A stretch of 64,000 nucleotides of DNA, taken from a virus. Its lineage: Duplodnaviria; Heunggongvirae; Uroviricota; Caudoviricetes. The position numbers were made by a program, and so were the translations under genes. Position 1 is the first letter of the stretch, and every line of letters starts with the position of its first letter. Of this stretch, positions 2,372 through 22,346 are shown piece after piece. The notes below the pieces were generated by a model that ran no database searches, was not told where the DNA came from, and saw only the letters and a program-made list of their open reading frames with translations. The DNA lies in IMG/VR virus record IMGVR_UViG_2706796742_000001, positions 1 to 64,000 of that record; one strand, given 5' to 3'.

Positions 2372-3481
2372 ATGACTACTAAAACTAAAGCACAGATTGA
2401 CGCAGAAATCTACAAACTGGTTAAAGAAGGTAAGCTGACTAAAACAGCTATTGCACAGAAGTTCAATACTTCAACCCGTTCAGTTGGTCGTGCTGTAGAG
2501 CGTCATGAAGCAACCTTAAAAGGTAAGAAAAAGGTAGCTTCTAAACCAGCTAAGAAGACTTTGAAGCAAGTTGCTAAGTCAGTTAAAAAGAAAGCTGGCA
2601 AACCAGTTGAAAAGGTTGTTAAAGAGGCTGTACAAAAGGCTCCGGTAAATAAACTACACGAAGCTATGCAGAATGGTGACCGGATTGAGTATATGATTAC
2701 TGGCGATTCTGTTATCATGACTTTCGGTGCAGATTCTGAAATCGTTGAATCTACCCATCCGAACTACAAAGAAATCGTAATGGCTGTTGTAGGTGGTGAG
2801 TACAAGAAAGCTTTCGAACTGATGAACATTCGTAAGTCTATCGAAAACTTCACTCAGGGTGCTATCACAATCAAAGGTGATAAGTTATTCTACGGTGCTG
2901 TTGAAATGCGTTCTACTCTGGTTGACCGTATCCTTCACATGATGAAGACTGGCGATAAAGGTTTTGAACGACTTGTAATGTTCTTCGAAAAACTGATGGA
3001 AAACCCATCTAAAGACTCTGTAGAACAACTTTGGGGGTTTGTATCTCACCTTGATGTTGAAATTGATGAAGAAGGCTACATCATTGGTTGGAAGAAAGTC
3101 TCTACTCGTGAAGGTAAGCTGGTTGACTCCCACACCCACAGAGTACCTAATGATTTGGGTAACATTGTAGAAATGCCACGTTGGATGGTTGATAACAACC
3201 GTAACGTAACTTGTTCTCAAGGTCTTCATGTTGGTGCTTGGGATTATGTTCGTTACTTCTCAGGTGATACCATCCTGAAGGTTCGTGTCCATCCACGAGA
3301 TGTTGTATCTGTTCCAACTGATTACAACGATATGAAGATGCGTTCATCCCGTTATGAAGTTGCAGCAATCGTTGATAATCAACGTAAAGTGCTGAAAGTA
3401 TGGGATGGTAAGACTGAAGCTTTGCATGTCATCGTTGGCACTGCTGGAGAACTCATCTCCCAACGTAAACGTGAAATCTAA
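2372..3481 (+). CDS. putative rIIB-like protein (by position after rIIA-like gene); basic Lys-rich linker
   Basis: 369-aa ORF directly downstream of the rIIA-like ORF; preceded by a TTGACA-N18-TAGAAT element and followed by a hairpin plus T-run. Confidence 0.35.
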   Translation: MTTKTKAQIDAEIYKLVKEGKLTKTAIAQKFNTSTRSVGRAVERHEATLKGKKKVASKPAKKTLKQVAKSVKKKAGKPVEKVVKEAVQKAPVNKLHEAMQNGDRIEYMITGDSVIMTFGADSEIVESTHPNYKEIVMAVVGGEYKKAFELMNIRKSIENFTQGAITIKGDKLFYGAVEMRSTLVDRILHMMKTGDKGFERLVMFFEKLMENPSKDSVEQLWGFVSHLDVEIDEEGYIIGWKKVSTREGKLVDSHTHRVPNDLGNIVEMPRWMVDNNRNVTCSQGLHVGAWDYVRYFSGDTILKVRVHPRDVVSVPTDYNDMKMRSSRYEVAAIVDNQRKVLKVWDGKTEALHVIVGTAGELISQRKREI

Positions 3482-3581: not shown

Positions 3582-4130
3582 ATGAAGAAGTTGATTCTAG
3601 GTTTGTGCTTAATGTTTACAGCACACTTATCTTATGCAGTTGACTGCCCAGAGCTATCAATTAGCCAAAAAGTAAACATGTTAAAAGCTTACCAGTATGG
3701 TGAGAATAATATGGGCAAAGGCTGGGGTATTACTCTAGCTGCTATAGCCTTACAAGAGTCAGAGTTAGGTCTGAATATGGAGAATAAAAAGACCCATGAC
3801 TATGGTATCTTCCAGAATCACTTGAAGACTGTTGTAAAGCGTAACAAAATTAGTCCTAATGTAGCTAAAAAGAAACTCTTAAAAGATTTTGACTATGCTG
3901 CAAAGGAAACACACAAAGAGCTTGAGTTTTGGACGAAGGTACATGGTCACCCAAAGTCAAAGAAGACTTTACAAAAAGTTTTAGCGTCATATAATGCTGG
4001 GTATTCGTACAAAATCCCTAAAGCTAAGAAATACTCTCAAGATGTCTACAACAATATGAAAGTTATTGCTCAATGTGAATTTGCAACAAACATTTCTAAG
4101 GTAAACCATGAAAAAATTAAGAAGGTTTGA
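3582..4130 (+). CDS. secreted lytic-transglycosylase-like (SLT-domain) protein
   Basis: N-terminal signal peptide MKKLILGLCLMFTAHLSYA; catalytic-Glu-like motif LQESELG and SLT-like YNAGYSY motif; RBS caggag upstream. Confidence 0.5.
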   Translation: MKKLILGLCLMFTAHLSYAVDCPELSISQKVNMLKAYQYGENNMGKGWGITLAAIALQESELGLNMENKKTHDYGIFQNHLKTVVKRNKISPNVAKKKLLKDFDYAAKETHKELEFWTKVHGHPKSKKTLQKVLASYNAGYSYKIPKAKKYSQDVYNNMKVIAQCEFATNISKVNHEKIKKV

Positions 4131-4803
4131 TGAAGTACTGTGTCATGCTTATGACTTACATCCTCATGAGTTAGGTCTTGATTCCTGTGTATGGACCCCA
4201 GAACAGTGCAGAGATTTTGAAGATACTGCAAGAGAGGTTGTATGTTCACTTGAAGAGTTCCACACATCAGAATCAATTGTGAACGTTGTGGACAAAGAGA
4301 CTGGACAATCTATAGGTGTAAGACGTGACAGTTTAGTCATAGTCAATAAAGACCTTGTAGAAAAAGGTAACCTCATCCTAGCAGATATTGATGGTGTTCT
4401 TACAAATTTTAATCACGAAGATTACTCAACAGAGTTGACTGACGGGTCATTTTCACAGTACACTAATCTTCTTGACTCTGTAAGAGCAAAACCAACATAT
4501 ATTTTCAATATCATTGATGCAATTGCTAATCATGCTGCTATCGGACTCTTGACAGCAAGAGGTGAAACTCAGAGAATACCTACTGAGATGTTCTTGAGGC
4601 ACAATATAGAACATGATTACATGCTTTTTATGCGTGGTTTTGGGACTAATTCTTTAAGTGCAGAAAGTTTAAAAGTCAGGATGATTCAGTCTTGCATTCT
4701 TCCTTACTTTAATATAGTATGTTTTATAGAAGATACAGAGAAGAATGTTCAGAAGGTTAACAGAATCCTTCCACACATCAAAACCATGTTAGTTAAACAT
4801 TGA
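4108..4803 (+). CDS. HAD-superfamily phosphatase-like protein (nucleotidase or polynucleotide 3'-phosphatase type)
   Basis: HAD motif I ILADIDGVLT, later GLLTARGE and FIEDTEKN acidic motif; overlaps upstream ORF by 23 nt. Confidence 0.45.
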   Translation: MKKLRRFDEVLCHAYDLHPHELGLDSCVWTPEQCRDFEDTAREVVCSLEEFHTSESIVNVVDKETGQSIGVRRDSLVIVNKDLVEKGNLILADIDGVLTNFNHEDYSTELTDGSFSQYTNLLDSVRAKPTYIFNIIDAIANHAAIGLLTARGETQRIPTEMFLRHNIEHDYMLFMRGFGTNSLSAESLKVRMIQSCILPYFNIVCFIEDTEKNVQKVNRILPHIKTMLVKH

Positions 4804-4813
4804 GAGAAAACTT

Positions 4814-5278
4814 ATGAACAATATCATTACGGTAGCACTGGACGTTACGGAAAACAAATCTGAAGTAGTTCGTAACATTATCAAGAGCAACTTTGAGGGT
4901 AAAATCTTCCGTGCTGTCAATGTAAAAGCAGACGGTAATATCCGAGAGTATCGTGCTCTTCTGAATGTTAAGAAACACGTCAAAGGTGCTGGTTCAACGA
5001 CTGCACACAAAGAAAACCTGATGACTATCTATGATATGGGCATGGCTTCAGAGTTAGGTGCTGAAGGTATCGTTAAAGAAGGTGCTCCGTATCGCTCTTT
5101 CAATCTGGAAACTGCTCTTATGCTTTCCTTTACAAGTGGTTCTAAAACAACTACTTATCTCTTTACTGATGCTGCAACGGTATCTGCTATTAAGGATAGC
5201 ACTGTCAAAGCTGGGGTAGCTGCTGCTGCAAAAGCTTCTTCGATGGCTGCAAATGTCCTTGCTAAAGTCCTCAGTTAA
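4814..5278 (+). CDS. hypothetical protein
   Basis: 154-aa ORF with RBS; followed by GGCTCCTTCGGGAGCC hairpin plus T-run. Confidence 0.5.
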   Translation: MNNIITVALDVTENKSEVVRNIIKSNFEGKIFRAVNVKADGNIREYRALLNVKKHVKGAGSTTAHKENLMTIYDMGMASELGAEGIVKEGAPYRSFNLETALMLSFTSGSKTTTYLFTDAATVSAIKDSTVKAGVAAAAKASSMAANVLAKVLS

Positions 5279-5290
5279 GGTTAAGATACA

Positions 5291-5312
5291 GGCTCCTTCG
5301 GGAGCCTTTTTA
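5291..5312 (+). terminator. rho-independent terminator
   Basis: GGCTCC-TTCG-GGAGCC followed by TTTTT. Confidence 0.65.
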
Positions 5313-5329
5313 AATTTCAAGGAGTATTA

Positions 5330-6214
5330 ATGAAGCCGATGTTCAAATATCTTGGTGGTAAAACAAGAATATTAAAAGAGTATGAGCGTTTAGGTGTCTT
5401 TCCAGACAACTGTAAAAACTTCTATGACCTGTTTTCAGGTGGTGGTTCAGTAGCTATCTGGGCTTATAACAGATACCCAGAGGCAAAAGTGTTTATTAAT
5501 GAGATAAATAAACATATTATAGGTCTTTACACAACTTTCAGAAATGACTATGAAAACTTCATGGAAGAGTTTGAGTACTTATCAAAGAGGTACTTAGCCT
5601 TACCTATGCAGGAAGAGTATGCCGTGAAAGGCCAGCGTCATAACCGTCTACGCTATAAGATGTATTACAGTGTAAGAGAGGAACTTCTTTTGCTTGGTGA
5701 AGAAGGAGCATATGACTACAGGTACTATGCCAGACAGTTTTTCCTTCAAAAATTAAGTTTTGGTGGTGTATGGCAGACTACTAAAGAGATGAAAGGTCAC
5801 TATGCAACACCTTGTGGGTATTTGCTGGAAGAAGAGATTTTCTTCACAAAAACTAAAGAATCACTATCCGAGTTTTACAGTTTTATCACCGATGAAAGGG
5901 TAATACTTAGCAGTGAACCTTATGACAGGGTTGACATAAAACATGGAGAAGGCACAGTTATTTACTGTGACCCCCCATATATCAACACCAACCAGAAATA
6001 TGGTGCAAAGTTTGATATTGAGATGTCTGTAAAATTATGCAAAGATATGATTTCTTGGGGGGAGTTAGGCTCTAAAGTTTTGATGTCAAACTCTCAGTGG
6101 GATGGATGGGCAAACCTAATTCCTGAAAATTTTAACTTGACAGAGGTTAGCCATTCATACACAATACATGCACAGAGAAGCAAAGATATTAACGAAGTAA
6201 TTATTCACAACTAA
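5330..6214 (+). CDS. dam: DNA N6-adenine methyltransferase, Dam family
   Basis: Dam-like N-terminus FKYLGGK, SAM-binding DLFSGGGS, catalytic DPPY motif. Confidence 0.7.
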   Translation: MKPMFKYLGGKTRILKEYERLGVFPDNCKNFYDLFSGGGSVAIWAYNRYPEAKVFINEINKHIIGLYTTFRNDYENFMEEFEYLSKRYLALPMQEEYAVKGQRHNRLRYKMYYSVREELLLLGEEGAYDYRYYARQFFLQKLSFGGVWQTTKEMKGHYATPCGYLLEEEIFFTKTKESLSEFYSFITDERVILSSEPYDRVDIKHGEGTVIYCDPPYINTNQKYGAKFDIEMSVKLCKDMISWGELGSKVLMSNSQWDGWANLIPENFNLTEVSHSYTIHAQRSKDINEVIIHN

Positions 6215-6225
6215 GGTATCAAGTT

Positions 6226-7038
6226 ATGGCAAACAGCATCAATGTAGCACTGAATGGTAAGGTTGTTAAAATTCACACTAAGATTATCAGTGTCGAGGAT
6301 TTCCTTAATGAAAAACGTTACAAAGAAAACCCTCGTCAACGAAATACACTTAAGCGTCTGAAAAGCAAACACCTTAATGGTGACGTATCACCAGACCAAA
6401 CAGTAGTCCATGTGGCTAAGTTCGGTAGTTCACTGTTCATCATTGATGGTCACTCACGTCGAGAGGCATGGAAAGTTGGTAACCTGACACGACCAGAAAA
6501 CTTGATTGCAGTTATATACCATGTGAACTCCATATTGGATGTCACAGATTTGTACACTCATTTTGACTCTGAGTTAGCAAGAGAAAAACCTTCAGAAGTT
6601 TATTACGGAAATATGAAGATGATTTCTTTCAACCCAGAGTCAGAACTGATGAAAGCATCTTGGGCAACTGCTATTAAGTATGTTGCTGCATACTACGGTG
6701 TACAACAGGTATCTAACACTGAAACAGTTAAATACCTTAATGACTTTAAAAATGAGCTGGAACAAATTGATTCTCTTGAAGTACAGCTTAAAGGTGTAGT
6801 AAACGCAAAACGGAAATATTCTTCTGGGATTCGCGCAGCAATGTTAATTACTCTACGCCTATATGGTGATGCTGCATTTTCCTTTTGGGAAGACTATAAT
6901 GACTACTGTGAAGGTATGTCTAACAAATATGTTACAGAGTTATACCAACTGGCATTACAAGCTGGTCGCGGAGCACAGGCTGATAAGTTGTTGATGAATC
7001 AAGTGATTTCACTTGTCAACTATTACAGTCAAGAATAA
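6226..7038 (+). CDS. ParB-like nuclease-domain protein
   Basis: ParB/DUF262-type motif IIDGHSRREAW in the N-terminal half; 270-aa ORF; terminator hairpin downstream. Confidence 0.45.
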   Translation: MANSINVALNGKVVKIHTKIISVEDFLNEKRYKENPRQRNTLKRLKSKHLNGDVSPDQTVVHVAKFGSSLFIIDGHSRREAWKVGNLTRPENLIAVIYHVNSILDVTDLYTHFDSELAREKPSEVYYGNMKMISFNPESELMKASWATAIKYVAAYYGVQQVSNTETVKYLNDFKNELEQIDSLEVQLKGVVNAKRKYSSGIRAAMLITLRLYGDAAFSFWEDYNDYCEGMSNKYVTELYQLALQAGRGAQADKLLMNQVISLVNYYSQE

Positions 7039-7044
7039 TACACA

Positions 7045-7066
7045 GGCTCCTTCGGGAGCCTTTTTC
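7045..7066 (+). terminator. rho-independent terminator (same hairpin as at 5291)
   Basis: GGCTCC-TTCG-GGAGCC followed by TTTTT. Confidence 0.65.
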
Positions 7067-7084
7067 ATTTCAGGAGGTTGTTAA

Positions 7085-7432
7085 ATGACATTTAAAGAGT
7101 TCTGTCAAGCTACTTTCATAATTGTTTTCTTAGTTGGGGCAGGTGTCTGGGGAGGATACTCCTACAGAGACTACCAAGTTGCTGAAGCTGAGCTAAATAA
7201 TGAGAAACTGATAAGTGTCGCTAAAGATGCTTATCAGGAAGGTTTAGTCACACTCAGCACTAATTACAAAAATGATTTGAAAGACGTGCTTGCTAAGAAT
7301 AAGCATACAAAAGAGGTACTAACATATGAAAAAACTAAGCCAGAGTTTTATAATGTTTGTGTTACTGATAATTATGTCAGGGTGTTCAACGAACAAAGTG
7401 AGCAGTACATTCAAAAACTCCCAAGTAAGTGA
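7085..7432 (+). CDS. i-spanin-like protein (N-terminal transmembrane helix, periplasmic helical domain)
   Basis: TM segment FIIVFLVGAGVWGGYSY near N-terminus; 3' end overlapped out of frame by a lipoprotein ORF. Confidence 0.4.
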   Translation: MTFKEFCQATFIIVFLVGAGVWGGYSYRDYQVAEAELNNEKLISVAKDAYQEGLVTLSTNYKNDLKDVLAKNKHTKEVLTYEKTKPEFYNVCVTDNYVRVFNEQSEQYIQKLPSK

Positions 7433-7595
7433 GAGTGACAAGTACACTCAAGAAGAATCAAGATTCACTGTCAAAGGCAACACTGGTAGTGATGTGGCAG
7501 CAGCCCTTGAGTTTTATCGTGATGGTTTTTACCAGTGCACAATCAAAGCTAATAACCTTATTGACATGATTTTATTAGGGAACAAACAGCAATGA
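7326..7595 (+). CDS. o-spanin-like outer-membrane lipoprotein
   Basis: Lipoprotein signal with lipobox IMSGC; RBS gagg upstream; starts inside the preceding ORF in a different frame. Confidence 0.4.
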   Translation: MKKLSQSFIMFVLLIIMSGCSTNKVSSTFKNSQVSESDKYTQEESRFTVKGNTGSDVAAALEFYRDGFYQCTIKANNLIDMILLGNKQQ

Positions 7596-8585: not shown

Positions 8586-9371
8586 ATGGGTATTGTAAAA
8601 ATTATCAATGGTGATATCTTTGCCGCATTTGATAAAAGTAAGTTTGATGTCATTGGTCATGGCTGTAACTGTATGAATTTCATGGGTGCAGGTATTGCAG
8701 CAACTATTTCTAAGCGTTATCCAAAAGTATATGATACTGATACAGAAGTTTACCTGTTTGCAGGTGGTATTCGCCACAAACCATGTGAAAACCTACTAGG
8801 TAATTTCTCTGTAACACGCTTAAAACAAGGCCGTGTAGCTAACCTTTACACCCAACTTCATACTGGTAAAGATGCCCGATACAGTGCTTTAGAGTCATCT
8901 TTGAAGCAACTTAACAGATACTGTGAAGTTAATAAGTTGAAGAAAGTTGGTTTACCTATGATTGGTGCAGGTATCGGTGGACTAGACCCTCAAGCCGTCA
9001 CAGTTATCATTAATCAGGTGATGAAGAGCGTAGATGTTTACCTGTATGTCTACGAGACAGAGATGTACAACGAGTTACACTCAGGTTGGAAGAACTATTG
9101 CGAACCGGAATACTTTGCAGGTGTAGTAACGTTCACAGACAATACAGTTACCCTCTTCAGACGAAGAAAAGGTAAGATACATCAAAGTAACCCTCCGGTT
9201 GAAAAGATGTCCCTAAGTAACGCTCTAGTTACCCACCTGTCGAAGAGCAATCACAGAATTGCCGTGACATTTGGTAGCGATGCAGACACCTACATCTATG
9301 CAAGAACTGATGAGGATATCGAGACAGTTTTCTCATCACCGGAAGTTACCTTCTTAGACGCAAAGAACTAA
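8586..9371 (+). CDS. macro-domain protein (ADP-ribose binding or hydrolase-like) with C-terminal extension
   Basis: N-terminal pattern GDIF...DVIGHGCNCMNFMGAGIA and later LPMIGAGIGG resemble macro-domain glycine motifs. Confidence 0.5.
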   Translation: MGIVKIINGDIFAAFDKSKFDVIGHGCNCMNFMGAGIAATISKRYPKVYDTDTEVYLFAGGIRHKPCENLLGNFSVTRLKQGRVANLYTQLHTGKDARYSALESSLKQLNRYCEVNKLKKVGLPMIGAGIGGLDPQAVTVIINQVMKSVDVYLYVYETEMYNELHSGWKNYCEPEYFAGVVTFTDNTVTLFRRRKGKIHQSNPPVEKMSLSNALVTHLSKSNHRIAVTFGSDADTYIYARTDEDIETVFSSPEVTFLDAKN

Positions 9372-12711: not shown

Positions 12712-12897
12712 TTGATTTTGGTTTTAAAAGCAAGTAAATTACTAATCAACGGGGAGGGAATGACCTTCCCCACTAAACAAAGTCCTAAACTGGAGATTCT
12801 AAAATGTTTGGTTTTAAAAGCAAGTAAATTACTAATCAACGGGGAGGGAATGACCTTCCCCACTAAACAAAGTCCTAAACTGGAGATTCTAAAATGG
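12712..12897 (+). repeat. tandem duplication of class-B cassette (two complete units of about 90 bp)
   Basis: Block GGTTTTAAAAGCAAGTAAATTACTAATCAACGGGGAGGGAATGACCTTCCCCACTAAACAAAGTCCTAAACTGGAGATTCTAAAATG occurs twice in tandem; first unit has no downstream gene. Confidence 0.65.
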
Positions 12898-15785: not shown

Positions 15786-17369
15786 CCTATCAAATCCCTT
15801 TCCTTTCCCTTTCCAGAATCTATCCCATACCTTAAAAGGCAATAACTCTATAGCTTACTCTATAGCCCCTTATCAAATTAACTTAAATATAAGCCCATAA
15901 CCCGAAAGGGAAGGGCAACCATTTAAACGCTCTATAAAGCCCTATAACAGCCTTATCAACCCAACTTAAGGGATTGCATTACCTCACCCTTAAAAACCCT
16001 TTATAAAGCTTCTTAGAGCCTTAAAAGAGCCTTAAAAGAATCTTATAAGGGTGTAAGCTTTATCATCTCGTTAGTATCTAGTGAACTACTAGAAAGGGCT
16101 TGATAATACTTAAAAGGTATGCTATGGAAAGCTTAAAAGAGGCTATAAAGTTACGTAAATGCTAGCCCCCTTAACATTTTCTTAACAATTTCTTAACAAT
16201 CCCTACATAGTTATGCTTGTTAGTAACTTGTTAGCCCCTTGTTAAATCTCTGTTAAAACCACGTAAAAGCCTTGTAAGAGCCTTTGGCATAGCCTTTAAA
16301 GCCCCTGAAAAGCCCTATAAAGAGCCTTCTATACAGTTGGGGTGCAATTACTAGGGAGAGACTAAAAGGAGCTTATAAGGGGCTATAAAGGGCTTTTAAA
16401 AGGGCTGTTTAAAAGGTCACTAAGAGAGAAAGGGAACGATAAGAAAAGAGAAGTTGTGTTTGTTAACAACCACTGTGCCCATGTTAACAGCTTGTTAAAA
16501 AGATTAAACACTTGTTAGGAACTTGTTAATTATCTTAACAAAATAACCCTTTAAAATTAACTTGTTAGCTCCTGTTAGTCATCTGTTAAGCATCCGTAAA
16601 GACTATTAAGCACTTGTTAGAAAACTGTTACCCTCTTGTTAAAACTGTTAAGAATCTGTTAATACCTCTGAAGAGATGTTAAAAGGTTGTAAGAACTGTT
16701 AAGAGATTGTTAATGATATTTTAAAATTCTGCAAAGGGGATGTTAAGGGGATGTTAAGGGCTACCAAGCAGATATACATCATGAGGTAGATTCTACCGAA
16801 TCAACTCTACAGATATTTTTGAGTTCCTTCAAAGACCCTAAAAAATGACTTGATAGTCCTATTTTATAAAAATTTTAAAATTCTGAATAATTACCTATAC
16901 AGTCTTTTAAAAATACAGGCATAAACAGGCTTATAAGATACCTTGTTAATACCGTGTTAGACCTTGTGAGATAAGGTCTGTAAAGATATTCCTGTTAAGT
17001 TTGTTAAAACAGTCTATATAGAGGCTTAGTAATACCCAGTGAACACCTATAGAGGGTAACATAGCTAACCTAGAGATTAAGAGGTGTATAGGGGCTTCTA
17101 AGAGGCTATAGAGGGATGGTTAAGGTGATTGTATAGGTTGTTAAGAAGACTTGTTAGAAGAGTGTTTAGAAGGGCTATACAGAGGTGCTATTAAGACCAC
17201 TAGATAGATACTAAGATACTATATAGTACTATATAACTATATATAGAGAGTAAGCTTAAGAAGGATGTTAAGAAGGTTAGATATTTTTATTCACATATGA
17301 TGGTGACCCAGAGGTTGGGACAACCGATAAAATTTTATAAAAATTATAAATTTCGTAAAATTTACTCAA
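15786..17369. repeat. 1.6-kb ORF-free region densely packed with short degenerate repeats, between convergent terminators
   Basis: No ORF of 60 aa or more in any frame; sub-blocks of CCTTAAAAG/CTTATAAG/CTATAAAG (about 15790-16400), YTGTTAR such as CTTGTTAG and CTGTTAAG with at least 18 copies (about 16440-16760), and TATAG/GTTAAG (about 16980-17280). Confidence 0.7.
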
Positions 17370-22314: not shown

Positions 22315-22336
22315 AAAAAAGGCTCCCGAAGGAGCC
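22315..22336 (-). terminator. rho-independent terminator downstream of endolysin
   Basis: On minus strand GGCTCC-TTCG-GGAGCC followed by TTTTTT. Confidence 0.6.
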
Positions 22337-22346
22337 TATGAAGATA

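What the first reader, a model, noticed from the sequence alone, without database searches (positions are those of the whole stretch)
5330..7038. Dam-family methyltransferase followed by a ParB-like nuclease-domain protein
A Dam-like N6-adenine methylase (DPPY and FxGxG motifs) is immediately followed by a protein with the ParB/DUF262-type IIDGHSRREA motif. Together they could form an anti-restriction or DNA-modification module, or the ParB-like protein could bind one of the repeat arrays in this genome.
Basis: partly seen in the sequence, partly recalled or inferred. Interest (0 to 1): 0.45.

Follow-up and report, generated by a model that had tools for sequence, protein, structure and literature searches.

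The report
Phage methylase with ParB-fold partner cassette
A small optional gene cassette in a FelixO1-like phage encodes a DNA adenine methylase and, next to it, a protein from a widespread unnamed phage family that has the ParB nucleotide-switch fold and repeatedly sits beside DNA methylases, so it is probably a helper of DNA methylation.

Summary
ORFs lie at 5330-6214 (294 aa) and 6226-7038 (270 aa), with the stated motifs.

**ORF1:** an intact D12-class N6-adenine DNA methyltransferase. It cannot be a GATC 'Dam' acting on phage DNA, because the 64-kb window has 0 GATC sites (about 180 expected).

**Cassette:** the pair is a 1754-nt accessory unit bracketed by a 45-nt direct repeat that holds a terminator hairpin.
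- Both genes: 12 of 256 related phage records.
- Methylase only: one record (ORF2 deleted by microhomology).
- Neither: the rest.

**Family context:** ORF2 has dN/dS about 0.02. Its family (497 cluster representatives) lies directly beside adenine methylases of four families, in 15 of 78 adjacent genes against 1 of 71 two genes away.

**Best reading (about 45%):** a stand-alone, NTP-binding ParB-fold partner of the methylase, equivalent to a split phage ParB-methylase fusion.

**Rivals:** an NTP-regulated nickase, or a function independent of the methylase.

**Novelty:** new variant of a known kind; moderate interest.

The parts
5272..5316 (+). Left copy of a 45-nt direct repeat that bounds the cassette. 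It contains the intrinsic-terminator-like hairpin AGGCTCCTTCGGGAGCCT plus a T-run at 5290-5307.
   Evidence: the repeat finder family D1, spacing 1754 nt, 84% identity. Terminator scan. The exact 24-mer occurs at 5288-5311 and 7042-7065, with 0 expected by chance. The empty site in phage BPS17L1 has a single copy.
5330..6214 (+). ORF1: alpha-class (D12) N6-adenine DNA methyltransferase, 294 aa. Motif I FSGGG is at nt 5432-5446 and motif IV DPPY at nt 5969-5980. Target sequence unknown, and not GATC on phage DNA.
   Evidence: Pfam PF02086 E 2.4e-23, full length. phrog_56 E 2e-52. TIGR00571 scores 100.5 bits, below its 114.85 cut-off. PADLOC MTase_II 2e-30. Weak PDB sequence hits to DpnM and T4/E. 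coli Dam. dN/dS about 0.10. 0 GATC in the window.
6215..6225 (+). 11-nt spacer between the two genes (GGTATCAAGTT). An AAGG Shine-Dalgarno-like sequence overlaps the ORF1 stop codon, which is consistent with co-transcription and coupled translation.
   Evidence: Read from the sequences in the alignments. No promoter or terminator was predicted between the genes.
6226..7038 (+). ORF2: 270-aa protein of an unannotated phage family. It has an N-terminal beta-hairpin (aa 4-22), a ParB/Srx (ParB-CTPase-like) domain (about aa 23-115), and a family-specific all-helical C-terminal domain (aa 122-269). Box I-like NPRQR is at aa 35-39 (nt 6328-6342) and Box II-like DGHSR lies within IIDGHSRREA at aa 72-81 (nt 6439-6468).
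7026..7070 (+). Right copy of the 45-nt direct repeat, with the identical terminator hairpin at 7044-7061. It overlaps the last codons of ORF2.
4814..5278 (+). Conserved core gene (154-aa hypothetical protein, phrog_2267) that forms the left border of the insertion site.
   Evidence: In cassette-less relatives it is directly followed by the spanin gene. dS to other phages is 0.11-0.16, against 0.46-0.69 for the cassette genes.
7085..7432 (+). Rz-like i-spanin, a conserved core gene that forms the right border of the insertion site.
   Evidence: phrog_1152 E 1e-41. Annotations in relatives.

Best explanation
The locus is a 1.75-kb accessory cassette of a Felixounavirus. It sits between two core genes and is bracketed by a duplicated terminator hairpin. 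It encodes (1) an active-looking D12-class N6-adenine DNA methyltransferase whose target is not GATC on the phage genome, and (2) a stand-alone protein of a widespread, so far unnamed phage family. That protein has a ParB/sulfiredoxin (ParB-CTPase) N-terminal domain with a conserved nucleotide pocket, plus a private helical C-terminal domain.

Proposed mechanism: ORF2 is the trans-acting equivalent of the ParB domain that many phages fuse to their DNA methylases. It binds an NTP through the NPxQR and DGHxR arginines, engages DNA or its cognate methylase, and so promotes or targets methylation of double-stranded phage DNA. The outcome would be protection from host restriction.

Shown: gene integrity, fold, motif conservation, cassette structure, co-inheritance, and statistical association with methylases.

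Inferred: NTP binding, interaction with the methylase, stimulation of methylation, and the anti-restriction benefit.

For: **Pocket.** N35-P36-x-Q38-R39 and G75-H76-S77-R78 match B. subtilis ParB N34-P35-x-Q37-P38-R39 and G77-E78-R79-R80 in order and spacing (39 vs 41 residues). The ParB sequence was validated against 6sdk. These residues are 87-100% conserved in 146 homologs.

**Module behaviour in the genus.**
- 12 records carry both genes and most carry neither.
- A second cassette in 10 records pairs a different methylase (PADLOC MTase_II 1e-22) with a 28%-identical ORF2 paralog.

**Recurrence elsewhere.**
- Cyanophage ACG-2014j: homolog followed by a CcrM-like methylase.
- Vequintavirinae phage Ro1: a distant relative one small ORF upstream of a D12 methylase.
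- IMG/VR: 13 of 39 downstream neighbours are PF01555 methylases and 2 of 39 upstream neighbours are D12 or PF05869 methylases, often with overlapping stop/start codons.
- Enrichment: 15/78 at +-1 against 1/71 at +-2, p 3e-4. Dereplicated odds ratio 21, p 2.5e-5.

**Selection.** ORF2 dN/dS is 0.017-0.019.

**Precedent.**
- ParB-CTPase folds fused to N6_N4 and other methylases are enriched in phages, and some bind NTP (PMC12704722).
- A stand-alone phage ParB activates its cognate DNA dioxygenase specifically on dsDNA (PMC13229309).
- A Felixounavirus was reported as remarkably sensitive to restriction-modification systems (10.1101/2021.03.08.434280).
Against: - No direct evidence of interaction or of any effect on methylation.
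- ESCO56 keeps the methylase after a clean deletion of ORF2, so the methylase gene is retained without its own ORF2. That phage does, however, carry the paralog in cassette 2.
- About 70% of dereplicated lineages have no adjacent methylase.
- Erwinia phage phiEa21-4 has a family member (HHalign 98.4%) but no detectable methylase in its whole genome.
- No ORF2-family/methylase fusion was found among the top 150 family representatives.
- The catalytic Glu of ParB's GERR motif is replaced by a near-invariant His, so the NTPase chemistry may differ.
Confidence: 0.45

Rival explanations
1. ORF2 is an NTP-regulated, sequence-non-specific nickase or DNase of the ParB/Srx superfamily. Together with the methylase it would form a restriction-modification-like or host-takeover pair: phage DNA is marked by m6A, and unmarked host or competitor DNA is nicked or degraded.
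For: - ParB/Srx domains have reported DNase/NTPase activities, including nicking by the ParB domain of the B. cereus Bce_0392 ParB-methylase fusion, and by Osa (reviewed in PMC5512222).
- Within the genus, ORF2 is never seen without the methylase, while the methylase is seen without ORF2. That is the asymmetry expected of a toxic R partner.
- Near-invariant D74, H76, D114 and D182 could coordinate a metal.
- In IMG/VR the family often lies between an SNF2-type helicase and a methylase, a set of activities reminiscent of motor-driven restriction enzymes.
Against: - No known nuclease motif or family was detected.
- The family exists without any detectable methylase in phiEa21-4 and without an adjacent one in most lineages. 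A toxic nuclease should not tolerate that.
- The 'nuclease' label of ParB domains is weakly founded; Pfam now calls PF02195 'ParB N-terminal domain'.
- The conserved residues map best onto the NTP pocket.
Confidence: 0.2
2. ORF2 works independently of the methylase as an NTP-switch DNA-binding factor. It could be a regulator of phage or host transcription (like KorB, DndB or HerB) or an anti-defence factor. Its proximity to methylases would then reflect co-location of counter-defence genes in accessory hot-spots.
For: - A family member is present in a genome with no detectable methylase.
- Most lineages lack an adjacent methylase, and other recurring neighbours exist: SNF2/DEAD helicases in at least 11 of 39 loci, and a metallophosphoesterase in two lineages.
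- ORF2 was lost in ESCO56 without loss of the methylase.
- ORF2 is far more constrained than the methylase (dN/dS 0.02 vs 0.10; 98% vs 87% protein identity between alleles), as if it contacts a conserved target other than the fast-evolving methylase.
- ParB-like proteins have been repurposed as regulators (PMC13370423; KorB and DndB hits).
Against: - Adjacency to methylases is specific to the immediate neighbour (19% at +-1 vs 1.4% at +-2).
- It involves four adenine methylase families, both gene orders and several unrelated phage groups, often with overlapping stop/start codons. That is stronger than mere island co-location.
- Two different methylases in the same genus each bring their own paralog.
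- No HTH or other DNA-binding domain was detected.
Confidence: 0.2
3. ORF2 is a partition-type ParB or centromere-binding protein that binds a repeat array (parS-like) in the phage genome.
For: ParB fold. The window contains a repeat-rich region at about 16.0-16.8 kb and a 90-nt tandem duplication at 12717-12896.
Against: - The repeat-rich region is in 247 related records (195 near full length), while ORF2 is in 12, so there is no co-occurrence.
- No ParA-like match among the neighbouring ORFs scanned, no HTH domain, and no ParB C-terminal dimerisation domain detected.
- The genus is described and used in the cited papers as lytic, with no plasmid prophage stage reported (own knowledge plus cited descriptions).
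- ORF2 is optional within the genus.
Confidence: 0.03

Closest known systems
Phage ParB-CTPase-fold / DNA methyltransferase fusion proteins (PF02195 fused to PF01555 or other SAM methylases; survey in PMC12704722; B. cereus Bce_0392 'ParB-methylase' cited in PMC5512222)
   Same: A ParB/Srx-fold module is coupled to an N6-adenine methylase on a mobile element. In 13 IMG/VR loci the gene order is ParB-like then methylase, and in the phage group richest in these loci the genes overlap.
   Different: Here the two parts are separate polypeptides, and in the window the order is reversed. The ParB-like part is not recognised by PF02195, so a PF02195-seeded survey would not have recovered it. It has its own 150-aa helical C-terminal domain and a His in place of the GERR glutamate. 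It pairs with four different adenine methylase families.
5mYOX-associated stand-alone phage ParB (ParB176), activator of a thymine dioxygenase on dsDNA (PMC13229309)
   Same: A stand-alone phage ParB-fold protein without an obvious DNA-binding domain, encoded next to a post-replicative DNA-modifying enzyme, with cognate-pair behaviour. Compare the two methylase/paralog pairs within one genus here.
   Different: The partner enzyme is a SAM methyltransferase, not an Fe/2OG dioxygenase. No homology between ORF2 and ParB176 was tested, because no sequence was at hand. The C-terminal domain here is a large helical domain, not the ParB dimerisation domain. Function here is inferred, not shown.
Canonical chromosome/plasmid ParB, Noc, KorB and PadC (CTP-dependent DNA clamps)
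   Same: Best structural matches for the N-terminal domain. Box I NPxQ(P)R and Box II GxxR arginines are conserved with the same spacing.
   Different: No HTH DNA-binding domain, no ParB C-terminal dimerisation domain, no ParA partner found nearby and no parS. No sequence-level match. Encoded by a phage genus described as lytic, as an optional gene.
DndB / DUF262 (GmrSD-N, BrxU, SspE N-terminal) DGQ(H/Q)R ParB-like NTPase domains of modification-linked defence systems
   Different: No Pfam DUF262 or DndB match in any of 146 members. No fused or adjacent HNH/DUF1524 nuclease. It is phage-encoded beside a methylase rather than part of a host defence system.
T4 / P1 / E. coli Dam and DpnM (D12-class GATC methylases)
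   Same: ORF1 shares the fold class, motif order and DPPY/FxGxG motifs.
   Different: Only about 25-30 bits to solved Dam/DpnM sequences and below the TIGR00571 cut-off. The phage genome offers no GATC substrate, so specificity or target DNA must differ.

Membership tests
D12-class N6-adenine DNA methyltransferase (Pfam PF02086) | Full-length match to the family HMM above the gathering threshold | tested here: met
   83.6 bits against a cut-off of 22, E 2.4e-23, profile positions 1-253 of 253.
D12-class N6-adenine DNA methyltransferase (Pfam PF02086) | SAM-binding motif I (FxGxG) N-terminal to catalytic motif IV (DPPY), i.e. alpha-class order | tested here: met
   FSGGG at aa 35-39 and DPPY at aa 214-217.
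Dam proper (GATC-specific; TIGR00571 / NF008152) | Score above the curated family cut-off | tested here: not met
   TIGR00571 100.5 bits against a cut-off of 114.85. NF008152 24.5 bits against 441.
Dam proper (GATC-specific; TIGR00571 / NF008152) | GATC sites available as substrate on the element's own DNA | tested here: not met
   0 GATC in 64 kb against 180 +- 14 expected. Also 0 in all Ounavirinae loci fetched. Already known for the genus (PMC5477317, PMC4690856).
Dam proper (GATC-specific; TIGR00571 / NF008152) | Methylation of GATC demonstrated | not testable with these tools
   Needs methylome sequencing or DpnI/MboI assays after expression in a dam- host.
ParB N-terminal domain family (Pfam PF02195, ParB_N) | Sequence match to the family HMM | tested here: not met
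   No hit at E<=0.1 for ORF2. 0 of 146 family members at E<=0.01. The profile against PDB sequences found nothing. HHalign against B. subtilis ParB gave probability 0.3%.
ParB/Srx (ParB-CTPase) fold superfamily | Alpha/beta core superposable on solved ParB/Srx structures | tested here: met
ParB/Srx (ParB-CTPase) fold superfamily | Conserved Box II arginine (P-motif GxxR) and Box I (C-motif) residues lining the nucleotide pocket | tested here: inconclusive
   R78 100%, G75 98%, R39 95% and Q38 87% conserved. The order and spacing equal those of ParB. The equivalence rests on motif and secondary-structure order, not on a residue-level structural alignment. The GERR Glu is replaced by His76.
ParB/Srx (ParB-CTPase) fold superfamily | NTP binding or hydrolysis | not testable with these tools
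   Needs DRaCALA or ITC with R39A and R78A controls.
Canonical partition ParB (ParABS) | HTH DNA-binding domain, C-terminal dimerisation domain, ParA partner and parS sites | tested here: not met
   No HTH, ParB_C or other Pfam domain in ORF2. No ParA-like match among the nine neighbouring ORFs scanned. Genome repeats do not co-occur with ORF2.
DUF262 / GmrSD-N and DndB (DGQQR / DGQHR) families | Sequence match to PF03235 or the DndB models | tested here: not met
ParB-methyltransferase fusion proteins | ParB-fold and methylase domains in one polypeptide | tested here: not met
   The genes are separate, 11 nt apart and in different frames. No methylase domain in 146 to 151 family members. The functional analogy rests on adjacency statistics.
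Type II restriction-modification system | Methylase adjacent to a recognisable restriction endonuclease | tested here: not met
   ORF2 matches no PADLOC or Pfam nuclease/REase model. Nuclease activity itself was not testable.

The most novel reading that the evidence does not exclude
The ORF2 family would be a previously unrecognised, widespread class of stand-alone ParB-CTPase-fold cofactors that license or make processive DNA methyltransferases of several unrelated families on double-stranded DNA. That would extend the newly found 'ParB activates a DNA-modifying enzyme' principle from one dioxygenase family to DNA methylation in general. A bolder variant is that, together with the SNF2 helicase found upstream in many loci, it forms a three-part motor/switch/methylase machine.
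Probability: 0.3. Interest if true: 0.7.

Novelty: new variant of a known kind. Interest (0 to 1): 0.45.

Why it matters
Phage methylases are usually treated as self-sufficient orphan enzymes. If a dedicated ParB-fold NTP switch controls or boosts them, three things would follow. It would explain why phages so often fuse ParB domains to methylases. It would give a function to a family with about 500 sequence clusters that every database labels 'hypothetical'. It would also give a tractable two-gene system in E. coli/Salmonella phages, with natural +/+, +/- and -/- variants, for testing how ParB-like switches assist DNA-modifying enzymes.

On the practical side, Felixounaviruses are used for Salmonella and E. 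coli biocontrol, and one isolate was reported as restriction-sensitive. An optional methylation cassette could therefore affect host range.

Tried and rejected
- **Sequence searches for ORF2.** Pfam, NCBIfam and PADLOC gave nothing. phmmer against PDB gave only spurious de novo TIM-barrel matches. The family profile against PDB gave 0 hits.
- **HHalign against ParB.** The family profile against a single B. subtilis ParB sequence gave no meaningful alignment. I did not build a deep ParB profile, so residue equivalences are by motif and secondary-structure order only.
- **Word-indexed protein search.** It returned only near-identical proteins, both with the single sequence and with the profile. 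Context look-ups through the look-up of encoding contigs were therefore not possible for distant homologs.
- **Genome-contig scan.** Bacterial and prophage context was therefore not sampled beyond IMG/VR.
- **AFDB50 fold search.** Not available.
- **Rosetta-stone fusions.** No fusion of this family to methylases was found.
- **Repeat-array binding idea.** Rejected by lack of co-occurrence.
- **GATC absence as a new finding.** Rejected, because it is already published for the genus.
- **Literature.** No paper was found that describes this cassette or a ParB domain in non-specific adenine methylases. My recollection that M.EcoGII or Hia5 carry ParB domains could not be verified and is not used.
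Full report
**1. Observation**

The window is a FelixO1-like myovirus (genus Felixounavirus). Region 4800-7500 is 98.3% identical to Salmonella phage HMD-P8, and 256 related phage records match part of it. Two same-strand ORFs lie exactly as reported: 5330-6214 (294 aa) and 6226-7038 (270 aa), separated by 11 nt.
- FSGGG at aa 35-39 of ORF1.
- DPPY at aa 214-217 of ORF1.
- IIDGHSRREA at aa 72-81 of ORF2.

**2. ORF1**

ORF1 is a full-length match to Pfam PF02086, the D12-class N6-adenine DNA methyltransferase (83.6 bits against a cut-off of 22). It also matches phrog_56 and PADLOC Type II methylase models, and weakly matches DpnM and the T4 and E. coli Dam structures.

It scores below the curated cut-off of the Dam subfamily model TIGR00571 (100.5 against 114.85). 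More importantly, GATC does not occur once in the 64-kb window, where 180 +- 14 sites are expected. It is equally absent from every Ounavirinae locus I fetched, with or without the cassette. This absence is already published for the genus (PMC5477317, PMC4690856).

It follows that the enzyme cannot act as a GATC Dam on phage DNA. Its specificity is unknown, and 'Dam' should be read only as a fold class. It is the only methylase detectable in the window.

**3. ORF2**

No Pfam, NCBIfam or PADLOC model matches it, and PHROGs places it in phrog_2615, of unknown function. An exhaustive HMMER search found 497 cluster representatives at E<=1e-3, mostly 250-330 aa. None of the 146 that I aligned has a relevant Pfam domain, and the family profile finds no PDB sequence.

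With that alignment AlphaFold2 gives a very confident model (pLDDT 96.2, pTM 0.84). It has three parts:
- a beta-hairpin at aa 4-22;
- an alpha/beta domain at about aa 23-115;
- an all-helical domain at aa 122-269.

The fold searches agree on a ParB/Srx assignment:
- Foldseek against PDB returns CTP/CDP-bound ParB of B. subtilis, M. xanthus and C. crescentus, then PadC, as the top nine hits. Sulfiredoxin is tenth.
- In BFVD the true relatives are all 'uncharacterized'. The next tier is ParB-like, DndB-like and GmrSD-N proteins.

The family's most conserved residues are Q38 (87%), R39 (95%), D74 (97%), G75 and H76 (98%), R78 (100%) and W82 (97%), followed by Y110 and D114. They form NPxQR and DGHxR motifs. 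These correspond in order, secondary-structure position and spacing (39 against 41 residues) to ParB Box I (N34-P35-x-Q37-P38-R39) and Box II (G77-E78-R79-R80) of B. subtilis ParB. I checked that ParB sequence against 6sdk.

This mapping is an inference from motif order, not a residue-level superposition. If it is correct, both phosphate-binding arginines are kept and the hydrolytic Glu is replaced by His. The C-terminal helical domain has no informative match. No HTH domain was detected.

**4. The pair is a mobile accessory cassette**

- Only 12 of the 256 related records carry the whole region. Most go directly from the 154-aa core gene to the Rz spanin gene.
- The cassette is bracketed by a 45-nt direct repeat (5272-5316 and 7026-7070, spacing 1754 nt). 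Its core is an identical terminator hairpin, AGGCTCCTTCGGGAGCCT followed by a T-run. The empty site has one copy. Gain or loss by recombination at this repeat explains the patchy distribution.
- Phage ESCO56 keeps the methylase but has lost ORF2 through a clean deletion between two AGTTAT microhomologies. About 95 nt of the ORF2 3' end remain.
- Between the two diverged cassette alleles (window type against EC106/ESCO45 type), ORF2 shows 60-65 synonymous but only 5-6 non-synonymous differences, giving dN/dS 0.017-0.019. The methylase has dN/dS about 0.10.
- Cassette dS (0.46-0.69) exceeds that of the flanking core genes (0.11-0.20), so the cassette alleles are older than their current genomic backgrounds.

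**5. The link to methylases recurs independently**

(a) Ten Felixounavirus records carry a second cassette between rIIB and the transglycosylase gene. It has three genes:
- a different 299-aa methylase (PADLOC MTase_II E 1e-22, weak Pfam N6_Mtase hit);
- a 279-aa ORF2 paralog (28% identity; HHalign probability 99.5%);
- a 77-aa ORF.

Three of these records also have cassette 1 (P = 0.01 for that overlap).

(b) In Synechococcus phage ACG-2014j a 317-aa homolog is followed directly by a CcrM-like beta-class methylase.

(c) In Raoultella phage Ro1 (Vequintavirinae) a distant relative (HHalign 96.8%, Foldseek E 4e-6) lies one small ORF upstream of a D12 methylase.

(d) In 39 IMG/VR loci with callable neighbours:
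- The downstream gene is a PF01555 methylase in 13.
- The upstream gene is a D12 or a PF05869 methylase in 2.
- Gaps run from -35 to +11 nt in 13 of the 14 locally detected pairs, and 106 nt in the other.

With the same Pfam detector, methylases make up 15 of 78 genes at position +-1 but 1 of 71 at +-2 (a C5 methylase), p = 3e-4. After dereplication at 60% identity, 8 of 29 lineages have an adjacent methylase (odds ratio 21, p = 2.5e-5). Excluding the query's own lineage gives odds ratio 18, p = 1.3e-4.

One caveat applies to the dereplicated test: the non-adjacent background relied on local HMMs rather than Pfam.

A second frequent neighbour is an upstream helicase of about 455-497 aa, SNF2-type in many loci, in at least 11 of 39 loci. 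Most of those loci belong to one broad lineage, so this may be shared ancestry rather than independent association.

**6. What limits the 'methylase helper' reading**

- About 70% of lineages have no adjacent methylase.
- Erwinia phage phiEa21-4 encodes a family member, gp108 (HHalign 98.4%). No methylase appears in its annotation, in a Pfam scan of its mid-sized hypothetical proteins, or in a seed and motif scan of all its ORFs.
- ESCO56 shows that the methylase gene persists without its own ORF2, although that phage has the paralog in cassette 2.
- No fusion of this family to a methylase was found.

**7. Comparison with what is known**

- A 2025 survey seeded with PF02195 found ParB-CTPase folds fused to N6_N4 and other methylases to be enriched in phages, and showed that such divergent ParB folds bind CTP, ATP or GTP (PMC12704722). 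The present family is invisible to PF02195, so that survey would not have recovered it.
- A 2026 study showed that a stand-alone phage ParB lacking a DNA-binding domain activates its cognate thymine dioxygenase specifically on dsDNA, with cognate-pair specificity (PMC13229309).
- Iyer et al. 2017 note that ParB/Srx domains, N6A methylases and SNF2 ATPases are recurrent partners in phage and plasmid counter-defence proteins. They also cite nicking activity for the ParB domain of a B. cereus ParB-methylase fusion (PMC5512222).
- A Felixounavirus isolate was reported as remarkably sensitive to restriction-modification systems (10.1101/2021.03.08.434280), which gives a plausible benefit for a methylation cassette.

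**8. Verdict**

'Methylase plus ParB-like protein forming a module' holds. Three parts do not hold or are unproven: 'Dam' in the GATC sense, 'nuclease', and 'binds the genome's repeat arrays'. For the last, the repeat region is in 247 records against 12 for ORF2.

My estimates for the mechanism are:
- about 0.45: ORF2 is a trans-acting, NTP-binding ParB-fold partner of the methylase, in effect a split ParB-methylase;
- about 0.2: an NTP-regulated nickase forming a restriction-modification-like pair;
- about 0.2: a function independent of the methylase;
- about 0.03: a partition-type ParB.

This is a new variant of a known kind. It is an unannotated, sizeable family of stand-alone ParB-fold proteins statistically tied to DNA methylases of several families, and natural genetic variants are available to test it.

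Noticed in passing
window 1-64000 (whole window); also L001-L005, L008, L009: GATC is completely absent: 0 sites against about 180 expected. This includes both methylase cassettes and the Erwinia phage phiEa21-4 locus. Other palindromes are depleted (CCGG 0.52, GGCC 0.57, CATG 0.63), and several 6-mers are absent (ATGCAT 0 vs 14.9 expected, CAGCTG 0 vs 12.8 expected). The GATC absence is already published for the genus (PMC5477317, PMC4690856).
   Followed up: yes
L004 2333-4368 (Escherichia phage ESCO56); L005 2426-4455 (GEP101): A second accessory cassette lies between rIIB and the transglycosylase gene in 10 Felixounavirus records. It holds a 299-aa methylase of another class, a 279-aa ORF2 paralog and a 77-aa ORF. 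It is absent from the window, where rIIB at 2372-3481 is followed directly by the gene at 3582. I did not examine its junctions.
   Followed up: partly
L003 3914-4069 (ESCO56), corresponding to window about 6226-6945: A natural clean deletion of ORF2 between two AGTTAT microhomologies leaves the methylase intact. This is a ready-made ORF2-minus variant.
   Followed up: yes
window 22316-22339 (- strand): A third copy (1 mismatch) of the terminator hairpin ACAGGCTCCTTCGGGAGCCTTTTT that brackets the cassette. It could be another recombination hot-spot.
   Followed up: no
L021, L027, L034, L040-L049, L052 (IMG/VR loci): A recurrent, tightly packed gene trio with overlapping stop/start codons: a helicase of about 455-497 aa (SNF2-type in many loci), then an ORF2-family protein of about 290 aa, then a PF01555 methylase of about 320-343 aa. 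In L027 a clamp-loader-like AAA+ protein replaces the methylase, and in L044 the downstream protein has no Pfam match.
   Followed up: partly
L006 2857-4886 (Rhizobium phage V1VFA-S); L012 3932-5901: In two unrelated lineages the ORF2-family gene is followed directly by a calcineurin-like metallophosphoesterase instead of a methylase.
   Followed up: no
L010 2904-3953: In one IMG/VR locus the gene upstream of the ORF2 homolog is itself a weak canonical ParB_N plus HTH protein, so two different ParB-fold genes sit in tandem.
   Followed up: no
window 8586-9371: A macro-domain protein (Pfam Macro E 1.7e-7; annotated in relatives as O-acetyl-ADP-ribose deacetylase or phosphatase). It is conserved in the genus and could be a counter-defence enzyme against ADP-ribosylation.
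   Followed up: no
window 12717-12896 and 15950-16800: A perfect 90-nt tandem duplication (2 copies), and a cluster of short 11-22-nt tandem repeats in an AT-rich region. The latter region is conserved in 247 related records and so is unrelated to ORF2.
   Followed up: partly
records MG065664.1 and MG065668.1: Two records labelled 'Campylobacter phage A132/A126' (host C. jejuni) are 97.7% identical to this enterobacterial Felixounavirus region. They are probably mislabelled or contaminant assemblies.
   Followed up: no
window 5330-7038 compared with flanks 4814-5278 and 7085-7432: Synonymous divergence between cassette alleles (dS 0.46-0.69) is three to four times that of the flanking core genes (0.11-0.20). 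The methylase has diverged much more at the protein level (about 87% identity) than ORF2 (about 98%).
   Followed up: partly
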